The translations under genes and the position numbers were made by a program. Under the pieces are notes generated by a model, which was not told the DNA's origin, searched no databases, and was given only the letters and a program-made list of their open reading frames with translations. 64,000 nucleotides of DNA from Acidobacteriota bacterium (lineage in GTDB: Bacteria > Acidobacteriota > Vicinamibacteria > Vicinamibacterales > CAVVIG01), in the NCBI GenBank assembly GCA_018268955.1, contig JAFDVO010000008.1:22988-86987 (forward strand), read 5' to 3'. This document shows, in pieces, positions 13,985 through 58,588 of the stretch. The number at the start of each line of letters is the position of its first letter. Within the stretch, counting starts at the first letter, position 1.

Positions 13985-16831
13985 ATGCCCGCATCGTTCG
14001 CGCTGCCCGCGGCCTTCTTTCTCTCAGGCGCCGCAGGGCTCATGTTCCAGGTGGTCTGGCTCTATCGCTGCGGCCTCGTCCTCGGGAGCAGCCTCCCGGC
14101 TGTCACGGTCGTCCTCTCTGCGTTCATGGCCGGGGTTGGCGCAGGCAGCGCCGCGGCTGCGCGCGCCGGCGATCGGGTTGCGCATCCCATCCGTGCGTAC
14201 ATCACGCTCGAACTCCTGGTCGCCATCACAGGCATCGCCGTCAGCGTGTTGCTGCCGCACGTCGGGGCAGTCGTGGGTCGCGTGACTCACCTGACGACTT
14301 CCGCGGCGACCCTCAATGCAGCACGGCTGGCCATCGCGTTCGGGTTGCTCATCGTGCCAGCGGGCGCCATGGGAGCGACGTTGCCGCTGCTCGTTTCCGT
14401 GCTGGCGAAGCGGGGAGCGGCGTTCGGTCCCGCACTGGGTCGGCTCTACGGTTGGAACACGCTCGGGGCGGTGGTCGGCGTGATCGGTGCAGAAGTCCTC
14501 TTCATCGGCGCGGCTGGTGTGACCGGCACGGCGTGCGCCGCCGCAGGCCTCAACCTGTGCGCGGCTTTGCTCGCAGGTTCGATTCGATCGGCTGACGCCG
14601 ACGAGATCCCGAACGCGGGACACCAGCAGGACGAGCAGCGTGCTGGCACGCCGCAGGACCGCGGCGCGGTCCGCTGGTTGCTCCTGTCCACTGCCGTCGC
14701 CGGTGGCGCGCTGCTCGGGCTCGAGGTGGTCTGGTTCCGCTTCCTGTCGATGTACGTGCTCGTCACCACGCTCGCCACGAGCGTGATGCTGGCAGCCGTA
14801 CTCTCCGGCATCGGCGTTGGCGGCATCGTCGGCGCAATCTGGCTCGGTCGTGGACGCAACGCCGCGACGTGGTTGGCAGTGCTGGCCTGCGCGACCGGGC
14901 TCAGTGTGATCGGCTCGTTCACCTTGTTCAGCTTCGTCACCCAGGGCACGCAAGTCGGCGCATGGACCAGCGTCCTGTGGTTCGCGTGCGAGCTGACCGT
15001 GATCACGTCGCTGCTTTCCGGAGCGTTGTTCACGCTGACCGGCGACGCGCTGCACCGAACCGGGCTTGGCGCTGCCGAGGCGACCGGCTCACTGGCTCTT
15101 GCGAACACACTCGGCGCCATCGTCGGTCCCGCGCTGGCCACATGGGTGCTGCTGCCCAACCTTGGGATCAAGGGGAGCATCACCACCTTCGCACTCGCCT
15201 ACGGCATCGTCGGCGCACTCGCCGCGCTGGGCCTTCGCGTCCGGCGCGCTCCCATCGCCATGCGCCGCGTTCCGTCACTGGTGATGGGCGCCGTGCTGGC
15301 TGTCGGTGTGGCACTCCTTCCGCTCGGCGCAGCAGACTCGGCGTATTTCCTGCGCGCCGCTGCTGCGTATGCGGACGATGGTTCCGAGGTCGTGGCGACG
15401 CGCGAGGGCACTGCCGAGACGCTGTTCGTCATGCAGCAGCGGTGGCTCGGTCGGCCCGTGTACAGCCGTCTGGTCACGAACGGCTTTTCGATGTCCGGCA
15501 CCGCCCTGCAGGGGCAGCGGTACATGCGTGGGTTCGCATACTACCCGATGCTCTTTCACGACGGTCCTCTCCGGAATGCGTTGGTCGTCTGCTACGGCGT
15601 TGGGGTGACCGTCGGCGCCGTCACGCACATCCCGTCGGTCGAAACCATCGATGTGGTCGAGATCTCACGCGAGATACCGGAGCTGAGCGACGTGATCTAC
15701 GAGGCCGGTTCGCGCCCGCTCGAGGACCCGCGCGTACGCCTCCATACGGAAGACGGCCGCTTCTTCCTGCAGACCACCGCCGACGCGTTCGACCTCATCA
15801 CCGGTGAGCCGCCGCCGCCTCGCACGCCAGGGACGGTGAACATCTACACGCGCGAGTACTTCGAGCTGGTGCGGAGCCGCCTGCGCGAAGGAGGCATCGC
15901 CACCTACTGGGTGCCGGTGGCTCGCCCCAACCCGGGCACGGACGTCAACACGATCGTCAAGGCGTTCTGTGACGTGTTCAGCGACTGCTCGCTGTGGAAT
16001 GCGACGCCATTCGACCTGATGCTGGTCGGTTCGCGTGGCACGACAGGGCCGAGGTCGCTTGCGGACCTCTCCCGGCCCTGGCAGACACCGGGGCTCGAGG
16101 CGCGGCTGCGGGAAGTGGCCTTGGAGCGGCCGGAGCAGATCGGCGCGACGTTCATCGGGGATGCCGCGTACCTGAAGACCCTCACCCAGGAGACGCCGCC
16201 GCTGGTAGACGACTTCCCGCAGCGTCTGCGTCCGCACCCTGGACGTCCGTCGCTGTCGGATCCGGGTTACGGCCGCGATCAGGCGGTCACGACGATGTAC
16301 GACTCGGTGCTGAGCGTGGAGCGGGCGCGCACGGCGTTCTCGACCTCGGCGTTCGTGCGGGGGCTGTTTCCGCCCGACCTCATCGAGCGGTCGCTGCCGT
16401 ACTTCGAGCAGCAGCGGATCATCAACCGCGTCTACTGGGAAGGCGGCCAGCCGCTGCGCCAGATCGAGGACCTCGACGGCGTGTTGTCCGGCACGACCCT
16501 TCGCACGCTGCCGTTGTGGATCCTCGGGAGCGACGAGGTGAAGCAGCGCATCGCGGAAACCACGCGCGACGATGTGAGTGGTGCGGTGGAATATGCCCGC
16601 GCGCTGCGTGCGTTGTCAGGACGGGACTTCGCCGGCGCCTCACGCTGGCTGTCGGTGGCACTCGAGCGCGGATTCACCGGCCCCACGGCCAGCCCACTGC
16701 TGGCCTACGCGTCGATGAAGAGCGGCAACACGGTGCTCGCGCAGCAGCTTGCCGCAGCCGCGCACGCCTCTTCAGACGACGAACGGCACTTCTGGGCGTG
16801 GATGGGGAAGGCGTTGGACGGCAGACGTTAG
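13985..16831 (+). CDS. Fused MFS-like membrane domain / spermidine-synthase-like domain protein with a helical-repeat C-terminal region
   Basis: Lies in ORF 13874-16831. ATG 13985 gives MPASFALPAAFFLSGAAGLMFQVVWLYR, typical of this fused family by recall. About 12 helices are followed by a methyltransferase-fold region (VVCYGVGVTVGA...DLITGEPPPP). Confidence 0.8.
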   Translation: MPASFALPAAFFLSGAAGLMFQVVWLYRCGLVLGSSLPAVTVVLSAFMAGVGAGSAAAARAGDRVAHPIRAYITLELLVAITGIAVSVLLPHVGAVVGRVTHLTTSAATLNAARLAIAFGLLIVPAGAMGATLPLLVSVLAKRGAAFGPALGRLYGWNTLGAVVGVIGAEVLFIGAAGVTGTACAAAGLNLCAALLAGSIRSADADEIPNAGHQQDEQRAGTPQDRGAVRWLLLSTAVAGGALLGLEVVWFRFLSMYVLVTTLATSVMLAAVLSGIGVGGIVGAIWLGRGRNAATWLAVLACATGLSVIGSFTLFSFVTQGTQVGAWTSVLWFACELTVITSLLSGALFTLTGDALHRTGLGAAEATGSLALANTLGAIVGPALATWVLLPNLGIKGSITTFALAYGIVGALAALGLRVRRAPIAMRRVPSLVMGAVLAVGVALLPLGAADSAYFLRAAAAYADDGSEVVATREGTAETLFVMQQRWLGRPVYSRLVTNGFSMSGTALQGQRYMRGFAYYPMLFHDGPLRNALVVCYGVGVTVGAVTHIPSVETIDVVEISREIPELSDVIYEAGSRPLEDPRVRLHTEDGRFFLQTTADAFDLITGEPPPPRTPGTVNIYTREYFELVRSRLREGGIATYWVPVARPNPGTDVNTIVKAFCDVFSDCSLWNATPFDLMLVGSRGTTGPRSLADLSRPWQTPGLEARLREVALERPEQIGATFIGDAAYLKTLTQETPPLVDDFPQRLRPHPGRPSLSDPGYGRDQAVTTMYDSVLSVERARTAFSTSAFVRGLFPPDLIERSLPYFEQQRIINRVYWEGGQPLRQIEDLDGVLSGTTLRTLPLWILGSDEVKQRIAETTRDDVSGAVEYARALRALSGRDFAGASRWLSVALERGFTGPTASPLLAYASMKSGNTVLAQQLAAAAHASSDDERHFWAWMGKALDGRR

Positions 16832-16879
16832 ACGTTGGACGTTAGAACTTAGAACTCAGAAGTCAGAATGCAGAACGTC
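16824..16879. repeat. In-phase heptamer run beginning inside the last codons of the upstream gene
   Basis: Units are gacgtta gacgttg gacgtta gaactta gaactca gaagtca gaatgca gaacgtc. The gene stop TAG is at 16829-16831, and a second in-frame TAG at 16850. A weaker periodic tail extends to about 16928. Confidence 0.75.
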
Positions 16880-17011
16880 GGTGGGTCAGTCAGTCCCGCC
16901 CGCCTTGCCCGCCCAGCCTGCCCTTTCAGGACCACTCGCTGTCTTCGCGTGTCCGTGACCTCCGTGGTAGTGCCGTTGGCCGCGATTGCGGCGCGACCCG
17001 CGCGATCCGTC

Positions 17012-17095
17012 CAGAGCCCAGAGCCCCGAGCCCGCAGCCCAAAGCCCGCAGCCCAAAGCCTATGGCCCATGGCCCAGCGCCCACCGCCCATTGCC
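17012..17095. repeat. Twelve in-phase heptamers, NNNNGCC on plus and GGCNNNG in the sense of the peroxidase gene
   Basis: Units are cagagcc cagagcc ccgagcc cgcagcc caaagcc cgcagcc caaagcc tatggcc catggcc cagcgcc caccgcc cattgcc. The array ends 11 nt from the stop codon at 17107-17109. Confidence 0.85.
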
Positions 17096-17106
17096 CTCGA
17101 CGGGTG

Positions 17107-18034: not shown

Positions 18035-18285
18035 GGCTCCAGGCTCCGGACTTCGGGCTCCGGTCGTTGTCGGCTGCGGGCAAGGATCGGCAGGCAGGGG
18101 GAGGGCGGGGCAGGCAGGCGGTCAGGGCTGGTGGGGCTGGTGGGGCTGGTGGGACTGATGCGGGCTTCAGGCTCCAGACCTCGGGCTTCAGGCCGGTCGG
18201 CTTCAGGCCGGACACCACGAGTGTCGCAGCCGGAAGCCGACAAGGCCGAGAGCCTGTAGCCTGGAGCCCAGAGCCTGAAGTTCGG
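18035..18285. repeat. Composite array: heptamers, three perfect 9-mers, then inverted GGCTTCA/TGAAGCC arms
   Basis: Heptamers from 18035: ggctcca ggctccg gacttcg ggctccg. GGCTGGTGG occurs three times at 18126-18152. Then gggcttcaggctccagacctcgggcttcaggccggtcggcttcaggccgg faces ccggaagccgacaaggccgagagcctgtagcctggagcccagagcctgaag. Confidence 0.7.
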
Positions 18286-23164: not shown

Positions 23165-23812
23165 CTACGGACGTGCGGACGTGACCGGCGCCTGGCAGTC
23201 GCGATCCCGGTTGACGCGAATGGGCCACCAGCGATCGAAGCCGTTCTCGGTGGCGCCGATCACCAGCACCGGCGAGATCAGCGCCGGGTCGTACTCGCCG
23301 ATGCCGGCCTGCTCCGGATGCTCGGGGATCAGGCTGACCCGCAACTGGTTGAACCCGGCCGACTCGAACGGCACGAAGTACAGGTCGGCTCGTCCCTCGG
23401 CGCCGTCCACCGTCTGGTGCGCCAGGCAGACCGGCTCGAACGCCTTGCCGCCGTCGAGCGCCGCATCCGCTGCCATGCGGTGGATCGAGTCCACGCCAAA
23501 GGCGCCCTGCAGCGCCTCATCGAATTCCGAGCGCAGGACGAGCGGGATTGCCGGGTGTGCAGGGGCGACGAGCGCGGCGCCCGCCCGCCTGGATACCTCG
23601 GCAAACAGCGAGGCGGTCAGCGTGTCCGGCGGCTTCACCGCGACAATCCACGGGTCGGTCCCATCACTCGTCACGAGCGTCCACCGCTCCGGCACCGTGG
23701 GTGCCACCTGCACCGGTGTCGAATCGACGCGATGGGTCACGTACCACGCGAGTGCGCCCCCGATGACGACGAGCAGCAGCAGGATGGGCAGGGCACGGCG
23801 CGCCAGGGACAT
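23165..23812 (-). CDS. Hypothetical membrane-anchored protein
   Basis: 215-aa ORF with one N-terminal helix (ALPILLLLVVIGGALAWYV). No family recognised. Confidence 0.6.
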   Translation of the reverse strand: MSLARRALPILLLLVVIGGALAWYVTHRVDSTPVQVAPTVPERWTLVTSDGTDPWIVAVKPPDTLTASLFAEVSRRAGAALVAPAHPAIPLVLRSEFDEALQGAFGVDSIHRMAADAALDGGKAFEPVCLAHQTVDGAEGRADLYFVPFESAGFNQLRVSLIPEHPEQAGIGEYDPALISPVLVIGATENGFDRWWPIRVNRDRDCQAPVTSARP

Positions 23813-23836: not shown

Positions 23837-23948
23837 GAAATGCAGAAATGCACAAATGCAGAAATGCACAGGTGCAGAAACGCACAGACGCAGAAGCGCA
23901 CAGACGCAGAAACGCACGACCGCTGAAGTGCACACATGCGGAAGCGCC
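23837..23948. repeat. Fourteen in-phase octamers (GAAAYGCA/CAnAYGCA), alternating with a 16-nt super-period
   Basis: Units are gaaatgca gaaatgca caaatgca gaaatgca caggtgca gaaacgca cagacgca gaagcgca cagacgca gaaacgca cgaccgct gaagtgca cacatgcg gaagcgcc. Confidence 0.85.
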
Positions 23949-23976: not shown

Positions 23977-24075
23977 GGAATGCAGGAAGGATGGAGGGGG
24001 AGATTGGAGGGTGGAGGTTGGGGTTGGAGTGGGGAACACCGGCTCCCTGCCCCGACCTCAGACCTCCGTCCTCTG
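23977..24075. repeat. G-rich TGGAGGN heptamers facing a C-rich partner (GACCTCN)
   Basis: G-rich side: ggaatgc aggaagg atggagg gggagat tggaggg tggaggt tggggtt ggagtgg. C-rich side: ccctgccccgacctcagacctccgtcctctgcc. The two sides are imperfectly complementary. Confidence 0.65.
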
Positions 24076-28723: not shown

Positions 28724-29428
28724 GTGAACCCGCTGCTCTCGATCATCGTCCCGGTCTACAACGAAGAAGCGACCATCGGCGCCGTCCTGGATCGGCTGCT
28801 CGCCATCGGCTTTCCTGTCCCGATCGAAGTGATCGCGGTGAACGACGGCTCCCGGGATGGGACGGCGGCGGCACTGGACGCCGCGGCCGCACGGAGTCCG
28901 CTGATCACGGCCGTTCACCTCGAACGGAACGGCGGCAAGGGCATGGCGCTGCGTACCGGATTCGCGCGCACGCGGGGCTCGATCGTGGCGATCCAGGACG
29001 CGGATCTCGAGCTCGATCCGGCGCAGTTGCTCACGTTGATCGAGCCGATCCTCGCCGGGCGCGCTGACGTCGTCTACGGGTCGCGCTTCCTGAACGATGC
29101 CTCGCACGTGCCGATCGTCTCGCGGCTGGGCAACGCAGGGCTGACCTTCCTGACGAACCTCCTGTACGGCACCAAGCTCACCGACATGGAGACCTGCTAC
29201 AAGATCATGCGCGGCGACATCGCGCGAGGCCTCCGGCTCACCGCGAACCGGTTCGACATCGAACCGGAGATCACCGTGAACCTGCTCAAGAGCGGCGTGC
29301 GCATCATCGAACTGCCCGTCAGCTTCTCGCCACGCTCGCGGCAGGCTGGCAAGAAGATCCGCTGGCGCGACGGCTGGCACGCCGTGGACCTGCTCGTGCG
29401 GCATCGGTTCGGAGGCAGCGGCTCCTGA
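28724..29428 (+). CDS. Family 2 glycosyltransferase (polyprenyl-phosphate sugar synthase-like)
   Basis: GTG start. Contains LSIIVPVYNEEATIG, VNDGSRDGT and IQDADLE motifs. Confidence 0.85.
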   Translation: MNPLLSIIVPVYNEEATIGAVLDRLLAIGFPVPIEVIAVNDGSRDGTAAALDAAAARSPLITAVHLERNGGKGMALRTGFARTRGSIVAIQDADLELDPAQLLTLIEPILAGRADVVYGSRFLNDASHVPIVSRLGNAGLTFLTNLLYGTKLTDMETCYKIMRGDIARGLRLTANRFDIEPEITVNLLKSGVRIIELPVSFSPRSRQAGKKIRWRDGWHAVDLLVRHRFGGSGS

Positions 29429-29444
29429 CTGGCGGCGACACGGC

Positions 29445-29645
29445 AACGCAGGAACGCAAGAACGCAGAAACGCAAAAACGCAGGAACGCAGGAACGCAGG
29501 AACGCAACGCAAGAACGCAGGAACGCAAGAACGCAAGACAGCGCGCTGGAAGATTCACGCAGTCACGCACGAGCGATTGCAGCATTCGTGCGCTCCTGTG
29601 AGCGTGCATTGTTGCATTCCTGCATTCCCGCATTCCCGCATTCCC
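29445..29645. repeat. ~200-nt imperfect palindromic element whose arms are octamer arrays
   Basis: Left arm 29445-29538 has twelve units of AACGCARR/ACGCARGA. A central bulged hairpin lies around 29556-29604. Right arm 29606-29645 has five units of GCATTCCY, whose reverse complement (RGGAATGC) matches the left unit at 6-7 of 8 positions. The element fills the gap between convergent stops at 29428 and 29651. Confidence 0.85.
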
Positions 29646-29650
29646 CCGGG

Positions 29651-30067
29651 TCAGTGCTTCGCTGGGATCTTCAATACCTGGCCCACCTTGATCTTGTCGG
29701 GGTCTGAGAGCTGGTCGCGGTTCGCGTTGAAAACCTCCATGTAGGCGCCAGCACTGCCGAGGAACTCCTTGGCGATCTTGCTGAGCGTGTCGCCGCTCTT
29801 CACGGTGTACGTCTGTGGTGCAGTCTGCGCGGCCGCTTCACTCTGGGCTGCCGCAGCGGGAGCGGTGTTCAACGGGCGGATGTCGGCGATGATGTCGGTG
29901 CGCCAGCTCGGGACGGTCTTGATGGCGTCCCAGATCCGGTTTGCCTCCTCCTGGTTCTGCACCGTCCCGTGGAAATGGAGCTTGCCGTCACGCTCTTCGG
30001 CCGCTCCCTGCATGTGCAGGCTCTTCGCCACCTGAATGGCCGCCCCGTACGTATCTCGCAATCCCAT
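29651..30067 (-). CDS. BON-like plus LysM peptidoglycan-binding protein (YgaU-like)
   Basis: Lies in ORF 29651-30268; ATG 30067 was chosen (MGLRDTYGAAIQVAK...). C-terminal LysM: YTVKSGDTLSKIAKEFLGSAGAYMEVFNANRDQLSDPDKIKVGQVLKIP. Confidence 0.8.
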   Translation of the reverse strand: MGLRDTYGAAIQVAKSLHMQGAAEERDGKLHFHGTVQNQEEANRIWDAIKTVPSWRTDIIADIRPLNTAPAAAAQSEAAAQTAPQTYTVKSGDTLSKIAKEFLGSAGAYMEVFNANRDQLSDPDKIKVGQVLKIPAKH

Positions 30068-32804: not shown

Positions 32805-34361
32805 ATGCGGAGACTCATTCAGCTCGCCTCCACGACCACAGTGGCGATTGTCGGCGCCTGTGGAGTCCATGTGTTCACGCAGGGCACCACGTCCACGCTT
32901 GCGGATTGCACCGTTGCGAGCCTGCAGGCGAAGGCGCCGGCGGGGACGACGATCACGGGTGCGAAGGTGGTCGACGGTTCCGATCGAGTGCCGCGGCATT
33001 GCCAGGTGGATGGGCATGCTGCGACTCCTGGCAATGAGGTCAACTTCCGGCTTGGCTTCCCCGAGCGCTGGAACGGCAAGTACTACTTCGTAGGCGTCGG
33101 CGGCCTCGGCGGCAGCATCGGCTCACTGAACAAGGGGCTCGAGCGCGGCTACGCATCCGCATCCACCGATACCGGACACAGCGCGGACGATCAGAGCTGG
33201 GGCTCGAACCGCGCGAAGGAAATTGATTACGGCCATCGCGGGACGCACGCGACCGCCGTGGCGGGGAAGGCGCTCGCAGGCGCGTTCTACGGGCGCGCGC
33301 CGCAGCACGCCTATTTCGAAGGCTGCTCCAACGGCGGCCGGCAGGCGCTCATGGAAGTGCAGCGCTATCCGGAGGATTTCGACGGGATCATCGGCGGCGA
33401 TCCTGCCACCGGCACCCCGATGCAGGTGGGACGGGTGCTCGTCTATCAGAAGATGCTCGCGAAGCCTGAGAACTTCCTGCCCGCAGAGAAGATCGAGCTG
33501 CTCTCGAAGGCGACGCTGGCCGCGTGCGACAAGGCGGACGGCCTCAAGGATGGACTCGTCACCGATCCGCGTCGGTGCTCGTTCAAGCCCGAGTCGCTGA
33601 AGTGCAGCGGGGCCGATGGACCGAACTGCCTGAACGACGGACAGCTCGCAGTCGTGAAACAGATTTACGAGGGAGCCTCCATCAACGGCGAACCGTACGC
33701 GTGGGGGTTCCCGGTCGGGCACGAGGGCAGTGCCACGGGGTGGCGCGCGTGGATCTCGGGTCCGGAGGATCCGACGACGCAGGCGGACGGCACGCTCGCC
33801 TATACGGGGCGGCGGCTGCCGAGCGGGTACGGGCTCGCCGAGTCCAACATGCGATTCCTCGCGTTGGAGAACGACGATCCGGCTTTCAACTGGCGTGTCT
33901 TCAGGTTCCCGCAGGATCTCGCCCGGATGAAGACCATGAGCGACATCCTCAGCCCGCTCGATCCCGATCTGCGTCCGTTCAAGAACCGCGGCGGGAAGCT
34001 GCTCCTGTACCACGGATGGTCGGATCCGGCGATCAGCGCGTACGGGACCGTCGGCTATTACGACCGCGTGCTGAAGACCGTCGGCGGCCAGCAGCAGATG
34101 GACGTGTTCGCGAAGCTGTATCTCGTCCCTGGCATGCATCACTGCAGTGGCGGCCCAGGCCCGAACGAGTTCGACATGCTCACCGCTCTGGAGAACTGGG
34201 TGGAGAAGGGGCAGTCGCCGGGACCGGTGGTCGCCACACACCGCGAGAACAACGCGGTCACCCGCACGCGGCCGCTGTGTCCGCATCCGCAGGTCGCCCG
34301 CTACAGGGGGACGGGGAGCATCGATGACGCCGCGAACTTCACGTGCGAGGTGCCGCGGTAG
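32805..34361 (+). CDS. Tannase/feruloyl-esterase family alpha/beta hydrolase, secreted
   Basis: Lies in ORF 32700-34361; ATG 32805 gives MRRLIQLASTTTVAIVGACG. Nucleophile motif FEGCSNGGRQALMEVQRYPEDFDGIIGGDPA. Confidence 0.85.
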   Translation: MRRLIQLASTTTVAIVGACGVHVFTQGTTSTLADCTVASLQAKAPAGTTITGAKVVDGSDRVPRHCQVDGHAATPGNEVNFRLGFPERWNGKYYFVGVGGLGGSIGSLNKGLERGYASASTDTGHSADDQSWGSNRAKEIDYGHRGTHATAVAGKALAGAFYGRAPQHAYFEGCSNGGRQALMEVQRYPEDFDGIIGGDPATGTPMQVGRVLVYQKMLAKPENFLPAEKIELLSKATLAACDKADGLKDGLVTDPRRCSFKPESLKCSGADGPNCLNDGQLAVVKQIYEGASINGEPYAWGFPVGHEGSATGWRAWISGPEDPTTQADGTLAYTGRRLPSGYGLAESNMRFLALENDDPAFNWRVFRFPQDLARMKTMSDILSPLDPDLRPFKNRGGKLLLYHGWSDPAISAYGTVGYYDRVLKTVGGQQQMDVFAKLYLVPGMHHCSGGPGPNEFDMLTALENWVEKGQSPGPVVATHRENNAVTRTRPLCPHPQVARYRGTGSIDDAANFTCEVPR

Positions 34362-34452
34362 GGCGGAGGGCAGAGGTCAGGTCGGAGGTTGGAGGTCGGA
34401 GGTTGGGCCCAGAGCCCGGAGGCTGAAGCCCGGAGCCCGAAATCTCCAGGTT
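34362..34452. repeat. Thirteen in-phase heptamers starting at the first base after the stop codon
   Basis: Units are ggcggag ggcagag gtcaggt cggaggt tggaggt cggaggt tgggccc agagccc ggaggct gaagccc ggagccc gaaatct ccaggtt. The first half is GGAGGTY in the sense of the plus gene. The second half reads GGGCTYC in the sense of the minus-strand tRNA. Confidence 0.8.
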
Positions 34453-35084: not shown

Positions 35085-35687
35085 GTGATATTTGAAGTCG
35101 GCGACAAGGTCATCTACCCGAATCATGGTCTTGGAATCGTGGAGCGGATCGAGGAGAAGACGATCCTCGGTACTACCTGCGGTTTCTACCATCTTCGGAT
35201 TGTGGCCAACGACACCACCGTGCTCGTGCCCGTGGCAAATGCCGATGGCGTCGGGTTGCGGCGCGCCATCAGCGACGAGGACGTCGATCGACTGTTCGGG
35301 CTTCTCGGTGACGGTCAGATCGACAATCACCAGAATTGGAAGGGGCGGTTCAAGGACAACTCGGACAAGATGCGCAGCGGCTCGATCTACGACGTCGCGG
35401 ATGTGTTGAAGAGCCTCACGTTCCTGGCGAAGTCGAAGAGCCTCTCGTTCCGCGAGAAGCGCATGCTCGATCGCGCGAAGTTCCTCATCATCTCGGAAGT
35501 CTCGGAAGTCATGTGCGAGAAGGCTGCGGCCATCGAGGACCGCGTCGATCGCGCACTCGAGCAGTGCTTCACCACGAAGGCCCGTGCTGCGGCACCGCGC
35601 CCGAAGGTGAGCCGCACCGCCGCCGTGCCGCCACCGCGCGCGCAGGCCGCATCAGCCGCGCGTCGCACCGCGCGCGCCGCGTCGTAA
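35085..35687 (+). CDS. carD: CarD/CdnL-family RNA-polymerase-binding transcription regulator
   Basis: GTG start after GGGGGA. Sequence FEVGDKVIYPNHGLGIVERIEEKTILGTTCGFYHLRI...MRSGSIYDVADVLKSL matches CarD_CdnL_TRCF. Ala/Arg-rich tail. Confidence 0.9.
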   Translation: MIFEVGDKVIYPNHGLGIVERIEEKTILGTTCGFYHLRIVANDTTVLVPVANADGVGLRRAISDEDVDRLFGLLGDGQIDNHQNWKGRFKDNSDKMRSGSIYDVADVLKSLTFLAKSKSLSFREKRMLDRAKFLIISEVSEVMCEKAAAIEDRVDRALEQCFTTKARAAAPRPKVSRTAAVPPPRAQAASAARRTARAAS

Positions 35688-35712: not shown

Positions 35713-35742
35713 AGCCCGCCGGCTCAGCCGGCGGGCTTTTTT
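35713..35742 (+). terminator. Intrinsic terminator after carD
   Basis: agcccgccggc - tca - gccggcgggct (11-bp perfect GC-rich stem) followed by tttttt. Confidence 0.85.
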
Positions 35743-53442: not shown

Positions 53443-54180
53443 ATGCCGCCGGTCCTCCTGTCCGTCGTGATTCCCGCCTACAACGAGGAGCGTCGCCTCG
53501 GCGCCACGCTCGTCACGGTCGCGGAGTACCTGCGAGAACAGCCCTGGGACTGGGAAATCCGTGTCGTCGACGACGGATCGGCCGATGGCACCGTGCGCGT
53601 TGCGGAGGCCGCAGCCTCGCAAGAGGGGAGGATTGTCGTCCAGCGTGAGCCTCACCGGGGAAAGGGCGGGGCCGTGAAGGCGGGACTGATGGCAGCACGG
53701 GGTGAGTTCAGGTTCATCTGCGATGCCGACCTCTCGATGCCGATCGCCGAGATCGCTCGATTCCTGCCCCCCGAGGCGCCCCCTTTCGACGTGGCAATCG
53801 GATCGCGGGAAGGGCTGCGCGCCAGGCGCGTGGGCGAGCCCGCCTACCGGCACATTGCGGGGCGCGCGTTCAACCTCGGGGTTCAGTGGCTCGTGCTGCC
53901 AGGGATCGAGGACTCACAGTGTGGGTTCAAGATGTTCACGGCAGCAGCCGTGAAGTCGATCTTCCCCCGTGTCACTGTGGATGGTTGGGCCTTCGATGTC
54001 GAGGTGCTCGCGATCGCCCGCGCCCAGAAGCTCCGCATCGTCGAACTGCCGATCGAGTGGCACTACCGCGCCGAGTCGCGCCTGAACATGCTCCGCGATG
54101 GATGGCAGATGCTGAAGGAACTGCTGCGGATCCGATTGAGGTCGATGCGAGGACGATACCGTTCCGAGGTTGGAAGCTAG
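53443..54180 (+). CDS. Family 2 glycosyltransferase (polyprenyl-phosphate glucosyl/hexosyl synthase-like)
   Basis: Contains LSVVIPAYNEERRLG, VDDGSADGT and ICDADLS. Confidence 0.85.
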   Translation: MPPVLLSVVIPAYNEERRLGATLVTVAEYLREQPWDWEIRVVDDGSADGTVRVAEAAASQEGRIVVQREPHRGKGGAVKAGLMAARGEFRFICDADLSMPIAEIARFLPPEAPPFDVAIGSREGLRARRVGEPAYRHIAGRAFNLGVQWLVLPGIEDSQCGFKMFTAAAVKSIFPRVTVDGWAFDVEVLAIARAQKLRIVELPIEWHYRAESRLNMLRDGWQMLKELLRIRLRSMRGRYRSEVGS

Positions 54181-54361
54181 AACTCAGAAGTCAGAACTGG
54201 GCCCGCATCGGTTCCAAGGCTCAGCCCGTCCGCCCAACCCCAACGCCCCAACCTCCAACCTCCAACCTCCAACCTCCAACCTCCAACCTCCACCCTCCAA
54301 CCTCCGACCTCCAACCTCCGACCTCCAACCTCCGACCTCCGACGTTCGTGCGCTGACCTCT
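54180..54361. repeat. 26-unit single-phase heptamer lattice (GAAnTCA drifting to AACCTCC/GACCTCC)
   Basis: Begins at the last base of stop TAG 54178-54180: gaactca gaagtca gaactgg gcccgca tcggttc caaggct cagcccg tccgccc aacccca acgcccc. Then come aacctcc x5, accctcc, and aacctcc/gacctcc alternating x7. It ends gacgttc gtgcgct gacctct. Confidence 0.9.
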
Positions 54362-54372
54362 GAGGGGGGTGC

Positions 54373-55476
54373 TTACCTCTGAAGCCGTGCCAGTATGCGG
54401 CGTGCGATGACGTCGGCGCCGTCTGCCCTGAGTGTCGATGCGGGGGCTGGTTGGGCGAGGAGCGCATCGAGCGCGTCGCCCCAGCGGCCCGCGACCAGGT
54501 CCTCGCGATCGATCAGGCGGCTTCGCATCACCGCAGGCATCTCGCGCATGAAGACCTCCTGCTCGATGAAGCGACCGCGCAGCGTGTAGAGCAGCGGCAC
54601 TCCATTCGCCAGGCACTCCGAGACGATGCCGTAGCCGAGCTTGGTCACGACTGCGTCGCAGGCGGCGAGCAGGTCCGTGTACGTGACGCCGGCGCGCTGC
54701 ATATCGGCTCTCGTGACGACGCGCAGGTTGGGATGTCGTGGCGCGTCTCGAGGCACCTCGTACTCGGTGGCCACCACGAGCTGACGAGGGTCATCGGCGG
54801 CGCTCGCCAGGGGCACGCTCCCACCATGTCCTCCAAACGTCGCAAGCACGAGCCGCTGTGTGGAGGGAAGGCCGAGCCGGGCGCGGGCATCGTGGCGCGT
54901 CACGGTCGCTCGACGCGCGACCAGCGGCACGTCTTCGAGCGGACGCATGCCGTCGAATCCACCCGCGAACGGCAGCCGCAGCGTCAGCGTCGCCTGCGCA
55001 TTTGCGGCTGCAATCTGCTCGCGCACGCCTGGGGCAGCGCTGTCGAAGCCGGGAAGGCCCCCGTAGATCCAGTCCCACGTGAAGTTGCTGATGGCGACCG
55101 ACGGGAGACCTGCCGCGCTCGCAGCCGCGAACGCGAGAGGCGGGATGTCGCCGACCACCAGCGTGCCGCGGTGCTCACGCAGGATGGCCGCCTCGCGCTC
55201 CACGCGCGTATCGAACTCCGCGTAGAACTCCCGCGCTCGCCGTGCGGTCTCCGCCTCGTCGATGCTGAGGCTGTCCGGCTGGACCACTCCAGTGTCGGTC
55301 GCACCGGTGATGATGTTGACGGGCCGGTGTACGTTGGCGCGCAAGAACCACTCCGGCACCGTCGTCCGGAGCCCGATGGGGAGCTCGGGTGCCAGCTCAC
55401 CAAGCGCGTTCACGACGAGCGCGCTGCGCGAGGCGTGGCCGAAGCCGTGACCGGAGATGTAGAAGACGACGGACAA
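54373..55476 (-). CDS. GT-B fold glycosyltransferase (GT1/GT28-like, MJ1255-type)
   Basis: TTG start. The N-terminus (M)SVVFYISGHGFGHASRS is typical of this family by recall. Confidence 0.7.
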   Translation of the reverse strand: MSVVFYISGHGFGHASRSALVVNALGELAPELPIGLRTTVPEWFLRANVHRPVNIITGATDTGVVQPDSLSIDEAETARRAREFYAEFDTRVEREAAILREHRGTLVVGDIPPLAFAAASAAGLPSVAISNFTWDWIYGGLPGFDSAAPGVREQIAAANAQATLTLRLPFAGGFDGMRPLEDVPLVARRATVTRHDARARLGLPSTQRLVLATFGGHGGSVPLASAADDPRQLVVATEYEVPRDAPRHPNLRVVTRADMQRAGVTYTDLLAACDAVVTKLGYGIVSECLANGVPLLYTLRGRFIEQEVFMREMPAVMRSRLIDREDLVAGRWGDALDALLAQPAPASTLRADGADVIARRILARLQR

Positions 55477-57841: not shown

Positions 57842-58516
57842 TCAGTGGATGTAAGGGATGAGACGCCAGCGGACGACCCTTCGGTACTCGAGGTAGCGAT
57901 TGCCGCACTGCGACGTCAGGCCCGCTTCTTCGAAGGGCATCGCTATCAGGAGGTAGGCGGTCGTGACCGTGGCGAACAGGAGCCGGTCGCCGGTCATCAC
58001 CGGCGTGCCGAAGAAGATGAGCACCCAGCCCGAGTAGAGCGGGTGGCGGACGAACCGGTATGGCCCGTCATGCTGCAGCACGTCGGTCGGCTTCGGCTCG
58101 GCGAGTCCGGCCAGTTCGCTGACGCTGATCTTCCTGACGCACAGGATGCTGAGTGCGATGCCGGCCACCTGCGCCGAGAGCAGCAGCACGTGCATGGCGC
58201 CAGACGCGTGATACACATCGACACCGATGGGGACCCAGAGCCAGGTCACCGCCATCAGCAGCAGGCTGGCCACCCACACATAGGCGCTCCGTACGAGATC
58301 GGCAGGCACCCACTTTGTCACCCACCGCTTCGCAGCAGGGCGCGCGAGCAGGCTGTGGTGCAGGGCGAACACCGTCAGCAGCCCAGTGTCTGCCGACGCC
58401 GCGCGCAGGGCGTGCCCGCCGCTCGTGACGTCCGACAGGTGCATCCACCACCAGCCGACACGCACGACGGCTGCCACGAATAGCACGAGCCCGATGCGTT
58501 TGATTGCCGGCTTCAT
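57842..58516 (-). CDS. ICMT/PEMT-like membrane methyltransferase family protein
   Basis: Lies in ORF 57842-58519 (TTG); ATG 58516 preferred (MKPAIKRIGLVLFVAAVV). Motif RHPLYSGWVLIFFG. Multi-helix. Confidence 0.7.
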   Translation of the reverse strand: MKPAIKRIGLVLFVAAVVRVGWWWMHLSDVTSGGHALRAASADTGLLTVFALHHSLLARPAAKRWVTKWVPADLVRSAYVWVASLLLMAVTWLWVPIGVDVYHASGAMHVLLLSAQVAGIALSILCVRKISVSELAGLAEPKPTDVLQHDGPYRFVRHPLYSGWVLIFFGTPVMTGDRLLFATVTTAYLLIAMPFEEAGLTSQCGNRYLEYRRVVRWRLIPYIH

Positions 58517-58588
58517 CAATTCACCAACTCACCAATTCACCAACTCACGAATTCACCAACTCACCAACTCACCAATTCACCAATTCCC
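58517..58588. repeat. Nine in-phase octamers CAAYTCAC abutting a start codon in a divergent 5'/5' spacer
   Basis: Units are caattcac caactcac caattcac caactcac gaattcac caactcac caactcac caattcac caattccc. On the minus strand the last unit reads GGTGAATTG immediately before ATG 58516. Confidence 0.9.

What the first reader, a model, noticed from the sequence alone, without database searches (positions are those of the whole stretch)
54178..54372. 26 phase-locked heptamers between convergent glycosyltransferase genes form an anti-SD / SD tandem array
The whole 192-nt spacer between stop 54178-54180 (plus strand) and stop 54373-54375 (minus strand) is one heptamer lattice. I checked it unit by unit from 54180 to 54361.
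- 14 of the 15 units at 54250-54340 are AACCTCC or GACCTCC (the other is ACCCTCC).
- ACCTCC is the core of the 16S rRNA 3' end (anti-Shine-Dalgarno).
- On the other strand, immediately downstream of the GT-B gene in its own sense, the same array reads GGAGGTT/GGAGGTC. That is about 14 consecutive perfect SD cores in a 3' UTR.
- The plus-strand transcript would therefore carry a C-rich, G-poor tract that mimics the anti-SD (also rut-like for Rho). The minus-strand transcript would carry a ribosome-binding-site array.
- The same GGAGGTY units follow the tannase-like gene at 34383-34403 and csbD (minus sense, around 24050-24075).
- Function is unknown. Candidates are sequestration of 30S subunits or of SD sequences, or Rho loading.
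Basis: partly seen in the sequence, partly recalled or inferred. Interest (0 to 1): 0.75.

Follow-up and report, generated by a model that had tools for sequence, protein, structure and literature searches.

The report
Ordinary intergenic heptamer repeat array
The run of ACCTCC/GGAGGT heptamers between two convergent glycosyltransferase genes is real, but it is one of at least 15 short tandem-repeat arrays with many different units that fill the gene-end spacers of this acidobacterial genome, so its likeness to a ribosome-binding site is most likely incidental.

Summary
The array exists: 13 in-register units (9 AACCTCC, 3 GACCTCC, 1 ACCCTCC) at 54250-54340. Two degenerate units precede it, and a separate (AGAACTC)x3 array sits at the GT2 stop codon. 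It is not a 26-unit lattice, because the stretches in between show no 7-nt periodicity.

The window comes from an uncultured Vicinamibacterales bacterium (Acidobacteriota). It holds 16 period-7/8 arrays, 15 of them intergenic, built from about ten unit types and concentrated in convergent spacers next to stop codons.

In relatives, the orthologous GT-B/GT2 spacer carries other heptamers (CGACGAG, CGACCAA, CCAACGC). Their orientation is opposite, and copy number differs between two near-identical strains.

(RACCTCC)4 arrays occur in at least 97 genomes of many phyla. They sit among 153 other heptamer arrays and show no consistent orientation to genes. Near start codons they prefer the anti-SD-like sense, not the SD sense.

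My best reading is a slippage-generated heptanucleotide repeat of the known intergenic class (cyanobacterial STRR, Xanthomonas/Nostoc GGGNATC, Beggiatoa TAACTGA). Its likely consequence is a 116-nt tract (60% C, 5% G) that is unstructured in the GT2 transcript and ideal for Rho entry. The opposite strand is G-rich and predicted to be G-quadruplex-prone.

An SD/anti-SD sponge is not supported. This is a new member of a known kind, of low to moderate interest.

The parts
54234..54340 (.). Heptamer tandem array, consensus CCAACCT (15.3 copies). The core is 13 in-register units at 54250-54340 (9 AACCTCC, 3 GACCTCC, 1 ACCCTCC), preceded by two degenerate units (AACCCCA, ACGCCCC). The last six units alternate in a 14-nt super-unit, AACCTCC GACCTCC.
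   Evidence: TRF; unit-by-unit split; absent from shuffles; present in four other assemblies.
54179..54198 (+). Separate short heptamer array (AGAACTC AGAAGTC AGAACTG) that starts on the GT2 stop codon. The 18-mer AGAACTCAGAAGTCAGAA is identical to 16851-16868, which lies after another plus-strand gene.
   Evidence: TRF; exact 18-nt match at two loci.
54225..54340 (+). C-rich, G-poor tract (70 C, 6 G, 26 A, 14 T in 116 nt) that starts 45 nt after the GT2 stop codon. It is rut-like in the GT2 transcript.
   Evidence: Composition. (C-G)/78 = 0.58, against a coding-window maximum of 0.27. The plus-strand RNA is less structured than all 200 shuffles, z = +2.6.
54234..54340 (-). G-rich reading (GGAGGTY)n, 32 nt downstream of the GT-B-like gene's TAA stop codon. 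It is predicted to form six two-tetrad G-quadruplexes, or to pair through G-U with the GAGUUCU units.
   Evidence: RNA fold -88.2 kcal/mol, z = -2.4. With ViennaRNA's G-quadruplex model the energy is -117.6 kcal/mol. This is a prediction only.
53443..54180 (+). GT2 family glycosyltransferase gene (245 aa), the left convergent gene.
   Evidence: PF00535, E = 7.5e-24; gene called in public assemblies.
54373..55476 (-). GT-B-like glycosyltransferase gene (367 aa), the right convergent gene.
   Evidence: Weak PF13528 match below cut-off. There are 6011 homologues, the closest named ones from Vicinamibacterales.
54166..54174 (+). GAGGTTGGA in the last codons of GT2, a perfect 9-nt complement of the array unit TCCAACCTC. 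It may be chance (about 1 in 100 by a rough estimate of mine).
   Evidence: Inverted-repeat search. The minimum-energy fold does not use it.
34360..34403 (+). Sister array (GGAGGTY, 6.6 copies) that starts on the stop codon of the tannase gene. It contains the same 14-nt super-unit.
23988..24073 (-). Sister arrays downstream of csbD, read in csbD's sense: GGAGGTC x3 (24052-24073) and then CCAACCT x6 (23988-24029). The two are mutually complementary.
16812..17096 (.). Another convergent spacer with two heptamer arrays of other units: CGTTAGA/AGAACTC on the left gene's stop codon and GCCCAGA-type 10 nt from the right gene's stop codon.

Best explanation
The feature is a heptanucleotide simple-sequence-repeat array of the intergenic, lineage-typical kind already known from other bacteria. 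It was made and is continually remodelled by slipped-strand mispairing, and it persists where sequence is least constrained, in the spacer behind two convergent stop codons. The GGAGGT/ACCTCC reading is one state of a purine-rich RGRRGTY unit family and is incidental to ribosome binding.

**Shown**
- The genome region is full of such arrays with other units.
- They sit almost only in spacers, mostly at gene 3' ends.
- Units and orientation turn over at the orthologous site.
- Copy number varies between near-identical strains.

**Inferred**
- The main physiological consequence comes from strand asymmetry.
- In the GT2 transcript the array is a 116-nt untranslated, unstructured tract with 60% C and 5% G. 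Rho would load there and terminate before RNA polymerase runs far into the antisense of the opposing gene. I put this at about 0.3 as a real in-vivo effect, and lower as a selected function.
- In the opposing transcript the array is G-rich and structure-prone.
For: **In the window**
- There are 16 period-7/8 arrays. Fifteen lie in the 8% of the window that is intergenic (p = 9e-16). Density is 7.6 arrays per kb of convergent spacer, 1.9 per kb of co-directional spacer and 0.9 per kb of divergent spacer.
- There are about ten unit types. Some recur at several loci.
- Shuffles give no period-7 arrays.

**At the orthologous spacer**
- Five relatives at 65-68% protein identity hold CGACGAG, CGACCAA, CCAACGC or CGACTGA arrays instead, and these are C-rich on the other gene's sense strand.
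- Two contigs that encode the identical GT-B protein differ by two copies.
- The only difference between the window and a 16-kb contig from another sample is one base inside the array.

**Across genomes**
- In 808 kb around (RACCTCC)4 hits there are 270 period-7 arrays, against 7 of period 6 and 28 of period 8. Of the 270, 153 belong to 97 other unit classes.
- Orientation to genes is neutral.

**Rut-like properties**
-.
- Canonical intrinsic terminators are not enriched: 26 were found against about 26 expected, and only one is convincing.

**Literature**
- Heptameric repeats are over-represented in many bacteria, especially large high-GC genomes.
- G-rich heptamers lie within 50 bp after stop codons on the sense strand, are depleted between divergent genes, and vary in length at conserved sites (PMC4692102).
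Against: - Within the window the unit families keep a fixed orientation to the nearest stop codon. GGAGGTY is in sense after three of three genes and AGAACTC after two of two, plus one relative. Pure neutral slippage does not predict that, although the numbers are small.
- Copy number at this locus is the same (13 units) in the window and the four assemblies that span the array. That is more stable than a hypermutable repeat. One short contig suggests a 3-unit contraction, but it ends inside the array.
- A heptamer array of some kind persists at this spacer across the family. That could mean selection for 'an array' rather than shared ancestry.
- There are no transcript data, and I did not check that the genome encodes Rho.
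Confidence: 0.68

Rival explanations
1. The array is a selected 3'-end element that works through its G-rich strand. In the GT-B transcript, (GGAGGUY)13 folds into stacked two-tetrad G-quadruplexes or a G-U-rich hairpin. That structure would block 3' exonucleases or promote termination or R-loop formation, as proposed for GGGNATC repeats.
For: - ViennaRNA with its G-quadruplex model predicts six quadruplexes and lowers the energy from -88 to -118 kcal/mol.
- The minus-strand RNA folds better than 198 of 200 shuffles.
- In the window the G-rich strand is the sense strand of the nearest gene at all three GGAGGTY loci.
- In relatives the G-rich strand is again the sense strand of the nearest stop codon, that of GT2.
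- The same placement rule has been published for G-rich heptamers (PMC4692102).
Against: - The G tracts are only two long, and two-tetrad quadruplexes are marginal.
- Many sister arrays are not G-rich at all (AGAACTC, CGTTAGA, AACGCAGG).
- Across taxa, G-sense against C-sense after stop codons is 19 versus 13, not significant.
- The published preference for four units is not seen here, where there are 13.
Confidence: 0.12
2. The array is a binding-site array for a single-strand RNA- or DNA-binding protein, for example a CsrA-like GGA binder, ribosomal protein S1 or a cold-shock protein. It would then act as a 3'-UTR sponge or regulator, as suggested for TAACTGA repeats in Beggiatoaceae.
For: - There are thirteen evenly spaced GGA motifs on the minus-strand RNA.
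- A limited vocabulary of units is reused at several loci in fixed orientation.
- There is a precedent hypothesis in PMC4679880.
Against: - Unit sequence is not conserved at the orthologous site.
- About ten different units would need as many binders.
- No candidate protein was identified or sought in the window.
Confidence: 0.07
3. The array would titrate 30S subunits on the GGAGGU strand, or titrate mRNA Shine-Dalgarno sequences on the ACCUCC strand.
For: - There are perfect 6-nt complements to the reported class anti-SD CACCUCCU.
- In the minus sense each GGAGG is followed 7 nt later by a TTG, a start codon this genome uses.
Against: - The unit is one of many, with mutational intergrades.
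- Orientation across 97 genomes is neutral. Next to start codons the anti-SD-like sense is favoured, 34 versus 14.
- Hits are concentrated in lineages reported as SD-scarce or SD-poor, such as Bacteroidota and Akkermansia, and are rare in SD-rich Bacillota.
- Only 9 of 47 genes in the window have an SD core.
- One array per locus could not titrate a meaningful share of ribosomes.
Confidence: 0.04
4. The array is an assembly or sequencing artefact of a short-read metagenome.
For: Two short Logan contigs end inside the array.
Against: Four assemblies from NCBI, ENA and JGI samples span it with the same 192-nt spacer and differ from the window by one or two bases within the array.
Confidence: 0.01

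Closest known systems
G-rich heptameric intergenic repeats GGGNATC / GGGGA(C/T)T of Xanthomonas and Nostoc (Rehm et al. 2015, PMC4692102)
   Same: - They are 7-nt tandem units dispersed over the genome and strongly intergenic.
- They are depleted between divergent genes.
- The G-rich strand is in sense within 50 bp after stop codons or antisense just upstream of ORFs.
- The arrays stay between the same genes in relatives, with extensive length and sequence variation.
- Their function is unresolved.
   Different: - The unit here has two GG tracts rather than one GGG(G) tract.
- There are 13 copies rather than the preferred four.
- The same genome also uses non-G-rich heptamers and octamers.
- The host is an acidobacterium.
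Cyanobacterial short tandemly repeated repetitive (STRR) heptamers (Calothrix/Anabaena; cited in PMC4692102 as ref. 39; the name is from my own knowledge)
   Same: Several distinct heptamer families are tandemly repeated in intergenic regions throughout one genome.
   Different: The unit sequences and the phylum differ. The gene-end placement and paired arrays in convergent spacers seen here have not, to my knowledge, been described for STRR.
TAACTGA direct repeats of marine Beggiatoaceae, some Cyanobacteria and Bacteroidetes (MacGregor 2015, PMC4679880)
   Same: One heptamer is repeated at many intergenic loci and found across distant phyla. [quoted passage not shown]
   Different: Those repeats sit mostly a few nucleotides upstream of start codons, with 2-6 copies. 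In that genome related heptamers are rarely repeated, whereas here many units coexist and 3' ends dominate.
Rho utilisation (rut) sites
   Same: The plus-strand tract is an untranslated, C-rich, G-poor, unstructured stretch of more than 80 nt directly behind a stop codon.
   Different: rut sites are not normally perfect tandem repeats. Rho dependence is untested here, and sister arrays of other composition cannot be rut sites.

Membership tests
Intergenic heptanucleotide SSR / STRR-like arrays | Head-to-tail copies of a 7-nt unit, several copies, beyond chance | tested here: met
   15.3 copies, score 163; lag-7 match 0.92; no period-7 arrays in 50 shuffles.
Intergenic heptanucleotide SSR / STRR-like arrays | Many arrays dispersed in the genome, confined to non-coding DNA | tested here: met
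   15 of 16 period-7/8 arrays are intergenic, p = 9e-16. This covers the 64-kb window only, not the whole genome.
Intergenic heptanucleotide SSR / STRR-like arrays | Copy number and sequence vary between close relatives at a conserved position | tested here: met
   The orthologous spacer has other units. Copy number is 4 versus 2 between L138 and L139. The single base difference from L003 lies in the array. Copy number at this exact locus is constant in the window and four spanning assemblies.
Intergenic heptanucleotide SSR / STRR-like arrays | Enriched next to stop codons and depleted between divergent genes (as in PMC4692102) | tested here: met
   7.6 arrays per kb of convergent spacer against 0.9 per kb of divergent spacer; 10 arrays start 0-32 nt from a stop codon.
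G-quadruplex-forming heptamer repeats (GGGNATC type) | One run of at least 3 G per unit and a preference for four units | tested here: not met
   The unit GGAGGTY has GG runs only, and there are 13 units.
G-quadruplex-forming heptamer repeats (GGGNATC type) | Forms a quadruplex | tested here: inconclusive
   The energy model predicts six two-tetrad quadruplexes.
Rho utilisation site | At least 70-80 nt that is C-rich, G-poor, unstructured and untranslated | tested here: met
   116 nt with 60% C and 5% G; highest C-G excess in the window; z = +2.6 against shuffles; starts 45 nt after the stop codon.
Rho utilisation site | Termination depends on Rho, and the genome encodes Rho | not testable with these tools
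   There are no transcript data. No rho gene was sought; the window is 64 kb of an uncultured organism.
Shine-Dalgarno ribosome-binding site | Complementary to the organism's 16S 3' end | tested here: inconclusive
   No 16S gene is in the window or in any fetched locus. The class-level anti-SD CACCUCCU comes from PMC10783764.
Shine-Dalgarno ribosome-binding site | [quoted passage not shown] | tested here: not met
   No gene follows the array in either sense, because the flanking genes are convergent. Across taxa the SD sense is the rarer orientation before start codons, 14 versus 34.
Intrinsic terminator | GC-rich hairpin followed by a U tract | tested here: not met
   No terminator-like site was found in 54181-54372. 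The only inverted repeats are array-unit matches.
REP / MITE / CRISPR | Palindromic units, terminal inverted repeats, or 23-50-nt repeats separated by unique spacers | tested here: not met
   The units are 7 nt, contiguous and non-palindromic. There is no Rfam match.

The most novel reading that the evidence does not exclude
In lineages that make little use of Shine-Dalgarno pairing, strand-asymmetric heptamer arrays, GGAGGTY among them, would form a reusable set of gene-boundary RNA modules. These lineages include Vicinamibacterales, Verrucomicrobiota, Bacteroidota and Planctomycetota.
- The C-rich reading would give structure-free leaders and Rho entry sites.
- The G-rich reading directly after stop codons would engage the otherwise idle anti-SD of 30S subunits, or fold into quadruplexes, to protect or mark mRNA 3' ends.
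- The array would then be functional and its SD likeness not accidental.
Probability: 0.05. Interest if true: 0.7.

Novelty: new member of a known kind. Interest (0 to 1): 0.27.

Why it matters
**As it stands**
- This is a documentation point. Vicinamibacterales join Xanthomonas, cyanobacteria and Beggiatoaceae as lineages whose gene-end spacers are filled with heptamer and octamer repeats.
- The GGAGGTY unit turns out to be widespread in Verrucomicrobiota, Bacteroidota, Chloroflexota, Planctomycetota and Acidobacteriota. My full-text search found no paper that mentions these heptamers as repeats.

**Practical consequences**
- These arrays break short-read contigs. Two contigs end in this one.
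- They generate long stop-free ORFs on both strands that can mislead gene callers.
- They can be mistaken for ribosome-binding sites.

**Scientific value**
- The role of heptameric repeats in bacteria is still unresolved.
- The paired-array layout of the convergent spacers here gives a clean test case for a role in Rho loading or 3'-end formation. The layout is purine-rich in sense after each stop codon and C-rich further on.

Tried and rejected
- **Finding the source genome.** I identified it instead through exact-protein look-up and homologue names.
- **Finding more arrays of this lineage.** A metagenome scan for the 28-nt alternating super-unit gave only 12 loci, all from other organisms.
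- **Checking the 16S 3' end.** No 16S sequence is in the window or in any locus.
- **Rfam.** The only match was the tRNA-Leu gene.
- **Intrinsic terminator or palindrome in the spacer.** None found.
- **Conservation of the array at the orthologous site.** Rejected. The unit and orientation differ.
- **A single 26-unit lattice.** Rejected by lag analysis.
- **Coding potential.** Stop-free ORFs cross the array on both strands. That follows from the unit having no stop triplet in any frame, so I did not pursue it.
- **Phase variation.** Unlikely, because the array lies behind two stop codons rather than in a promoter or reading frame.
- **Literature.** I searched for GGAGGTT, AACCTCC, GGAGGTC and GACCTCC as words. 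The hits were unrelated papers, none about bacterial repeat arrays.

**Caveat on the cross-taxon orientation counts.** They rest on my own crude ORF/GC3 gene calls with the arrays masked. They are indicative only.
Full report
**1. What is at the coordinates**

The spacer between the TAG stop codon of a plus-strand GT2 glycosyltransferase gene (53443-54180) and the TAA stop codon of a minus-strand GT-B-like gene (54373-55476) is 192 nt.

- Tandem Repeats Finder reports two arrays in it. One is (AGAACTC)x2.9 at 54179-54198. The other is a period-7 array at 54234-54340 with 15.3 copies, 89% matches and score 163, the highest score in the window.
- Cut in register, 54250-54340 is 13 units: 9 AACCTCC, 3 GACCTCC and 1 ACCCTCC. 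Two degenerate units come before it.
- The claimed 26-unit lattice also fails. The lag-7 self-match is 0.92 in the array but 0.26 in 54199-54240 and 0.36 in 54341-54372.
- The array is far beyond chance. Fifty shuffles produced no period-7 array of score >=40.
- It is not an assembly artefact. Four contigs from other samples and pipelines span it with the same spacer length, and two short contigs break inside it.

**2. Whose genome**

- The window is 99.8-99.99% identical to contigs of an uncultured bacterium (NCBI MAG GCA_046331445.1, plus ENA, JGI and Logan assemblies).
- Homologues of the GT-B-like protein at 51-68% identity that carry an organism name are all from Vicinamibacterales or Acidobacteria.
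- The window's GC content is 66.6%.

**3. The array is one of many**

- The window holds 16 period-7/8 arrays of at least 2.8 copies. Fifteen lie in the 8% of the window that is non-coding (p = 9e-16).
- The units include CGTTAGA, AGAACTC, GCCCAGA/GCCCGGA, GAGCCTG and GGAGGTY. The octamers are GAAACGCA, AACGCAGG, TGCATTCC and TTCACCAA.
- Density is 7.6 arrays per kb in convergent spacers, 1.9 in co-directional spacers and 0.9 in divergent spacers. Four of the five long convergent spacers carry two arrays each, one beside each stop codon. Ten arrays begin 0-32 nt from a stop codon.
- Units recur between loci. The 18-mer AGAACTCAGAAGTCAGAA follows two different plus-strand genes.
- So the SD-like unit is one word in a vocabulary of about ten.

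**4. Comparison at the orthologous site**

- Relatives with 65-68% identical GT-B proteins keep the convergent GT-B/GT2 pair. Five of seven have a heptamer array in the spacer, but with other units: CGACGAG, CGACCAA, CCAACGC and CGACTGA.
- There the C-rich strand is the sense strand of GT-B, and the array abuts the GT2 stop codon. That is the opposite orientation to the window.
- Two contigs that encode the identical GT-B protein differ by two CGACGAG copies.
- Between the window and a 16-kb contig from another sample, the only difference is A/C at 54272, inside the array.
- This is the behaviour of a slippage-prone repeat at a persistently permissive site. It matches what was described for GGGAATC repeats between Xanthomonas species (PMC4692102).

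**5. The same unit elsewhere**

By my tally of the record titles these come from 97 genomes:

| Phylum | Genomes |
|---|---|
| Verrucomicrobiota (including Lentisphaeria) | 27 |
| Bacteroidota | 18 |
| Chloroflexota | 11 |
| Pseudomonadota | 11 |
| Planctomycetota | 9 |
| Acidobacteriota | 8 |
| Bacillota | 2 |
| Actinomycetota | 2 |

- From my memory of the collection's make-up, which I did not compute, Verrucomicrobiota are about ten-fold over-represented and Bacillota and Actinomycetota strongly under-represented.
- Those 808 kb contain 270 period-7 arrays, against 7 of period 6 and 28 of period 8. Of the 270, 153 belong to 97 other unit classes in 64 loci. Genomes that carry GGAGGTY arrays are therefore heptamer-rich in general.
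- Within single arrays GGAGGTC grades into TCAGAAG, CAGAGGT, GGAGGCT, GGAGGGC or GGGAGCT. The SD core is thus a mutational neighbour of non-SD units.

**6. Orientation test**

I used my own crude gene calls with the arrays masked.

| Context | SD-like (GGAGGT) sense | Anti-SD-like (ACCTCC) sense | p |
|---|---|---|---|
| Co-directional neighbours | 25 | 26 | 1.0 |
| Within 60 nt after a stop codon | 19 | 13 | 0.38 |
| Within 60 nt before a start codon | 14 | 34 | 0.006 |

- By eye, several acidobacterial examples place (AACCTCC)n directly upstream of a start codon.
- This is the reverse of what ribosome-binding sites would show. It agrees with the published rule for G-rich heptamers (PMC4692102).
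It is not met for this unit across taxa.

**7. Shine-Dalgarno usage**

- Of 18 genes with public start calls in the window, none has GGAGG and two have GAGG upstream.
- Over 47 genes, 9 have a 4-nt core and 4 have GGAGG, against 1 and 0 in controls taken inside genes.
- For the class Vicinamibacteria, a published survey gives the anti-SD as CACCUCCU, with the value 41 in what I take to be its per-cent-SD column (PMC10783764).
- The ribosome can therefore presumably pair with GGAGGU, but the organism relies on that pairing little.
- The same paper lists Bacteroidota and Akkermansia as SD-scarce. Both are prominent among the hits. That fits tolerance of such arrays where SD pairing matters less, but I did not test this.

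**8. Physical properties**

- On the plus strand, 54225-54340 is 60% C and 5% G. Its 78-nt C-minus-G excess is 0.58, the largest in the window, against a coding maximum of 0.27. The spacer RNA folds less well than all 200 shuffles (z = +2.6).
- These are textbook properties of a Rho entry site (my own knowledge), and the tract begins 45 nt after the GT2 stop codon.
- Canonical intrinsic terminators are not enriched in the window: 26 were found against about 26 expected. Only one looks convincing, at 35713-35737.
- The minus-strand RNA folds moderately well (-88 kcal/mol, z = -2.4). With a quadruplex model it is predicted to form six two-tetrad quadruplexes, one per pair of units (-118 kcal/mol).
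- Sister arrays vary. Five other 3' regions have C excess beyond any coding window, but most do not. Several units are neither G-rich nor C-rich. No single RNA-level role fits them all.

**9. Verdict**

- The best-supported explanation is a slippage-generated heptanucleotide repeat array of the known intergenic class. The SD/anti-SD likeness is incidental.
- The most probable consequence is a Rho-loading tract for the GT2 transcript.
- An SD or anti-SD sponge is not excluded by experiment, but every comparative test available here speaks against it.
- Novelty is limited to a new lineage and a unit not found in my literature search.

Noticed in passing
window 29425-29655: Two octamer arrays in one convergent spacer are reverse complements of each other: (AACGCAGG)x11.8 after a GT2 gene and (TGCATTCC)x5 next to the stop codon of a LysM-domain gene. 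The minus-strand RNA folds into a single giant hairpin of -119 kcal/mol (z = -8.0, 0 of 200 shuffles as stable), using G-U pairs. The plus strand folds much less well (z = -2.2).
   Followed up: partly
window 58512-58586: An octamer array (TTCACCAA)x9.4 fills a divergent spacer. In the minus sense (TTGGTGAA) it runs right up to the ATG of the PEMT/ICMT-like gene at 57842-58516. It is the only array on a 5' side. One assembly (L004) has six substitutions within it.
   Followed up: partly
window 23837-23947: About 13 octamer units (GAAACGCA / AAATGCAC, with a 16- and 32-nt higher order) lie 24 nt upstream of the start of the minus-strand gene 23165-23812. They follow the GGAGGTC/CCAACCT pair downstream of csbD.
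   Followed up: no
window 16851-16868 and 54179-54196; L123 15527: The identical 18-mer AGAACTCAGAAGTCAGAA sits on or just after the stop codon of two unrelated plus-strand genes. A relative has TAGAAGAACTCAGGAGCC right after another stop codon. Either the element is shared or the unit family is preferred.
   Followed up: partly
window, all annotated start codons: Shine-Dalgarno motifs are scarce. Nine of 47 genes have a 4-nt core in positions -20 to -3, and none of the 18 publicly called start codons has GGAGG.
   Followed up: partly
window 35713-35737: This is the only convincing canonical intrinsic terminator in 64 kb: an 11-bp GC stem (AGCCCGCCGGC TCA GCCGGCGGGCT) followed by TTTTTT, after gene 35085-35687.
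   Followed up: no
L138/L139 7140-7160, L141 7118-7137, L123 15545-15570; window 34418-34433: A recurring GC-rich hairpin with a UGAA-type loop (GTCCGGC TGAA GCCGGAC) lies at gene 3' ends in relatives. In L141 its loop contains the GT-B stop codon. A similar GGCTGAAGCC core sits inside the GCCCGGA array at 34421-34430. It may be a REP-like element.
   Followed up: no
window 18116-18164: A 9-mer array (GGGCTGGTG)x4.6 lies in the spacer between two minus-strand genes, about 100 nt upstream of the cytochrome c peroxidase gene's start codon.
   Followed up: no
L005 and L006 (contig ends at window 54302 and 54281): Short-read contigs end inside the heptamer array. L005 looks like a 21-nt (3-unit) contraction relative to the other assemblies, but that cannot be told apart from assembly collapse.
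   Followed up: partly
L128, L134, L116, L126 (metagenome and genome loci from other phyla): The same architecture recurs in unrelated organisms of 49-69% GC. Several different heptamer arrays lie back to back in one spacer, for example GGGAGCT, then GGAGGTY, then GAACCTT. Some have a complementary C-rich array that would form a hairpin.
   Followed up: partly
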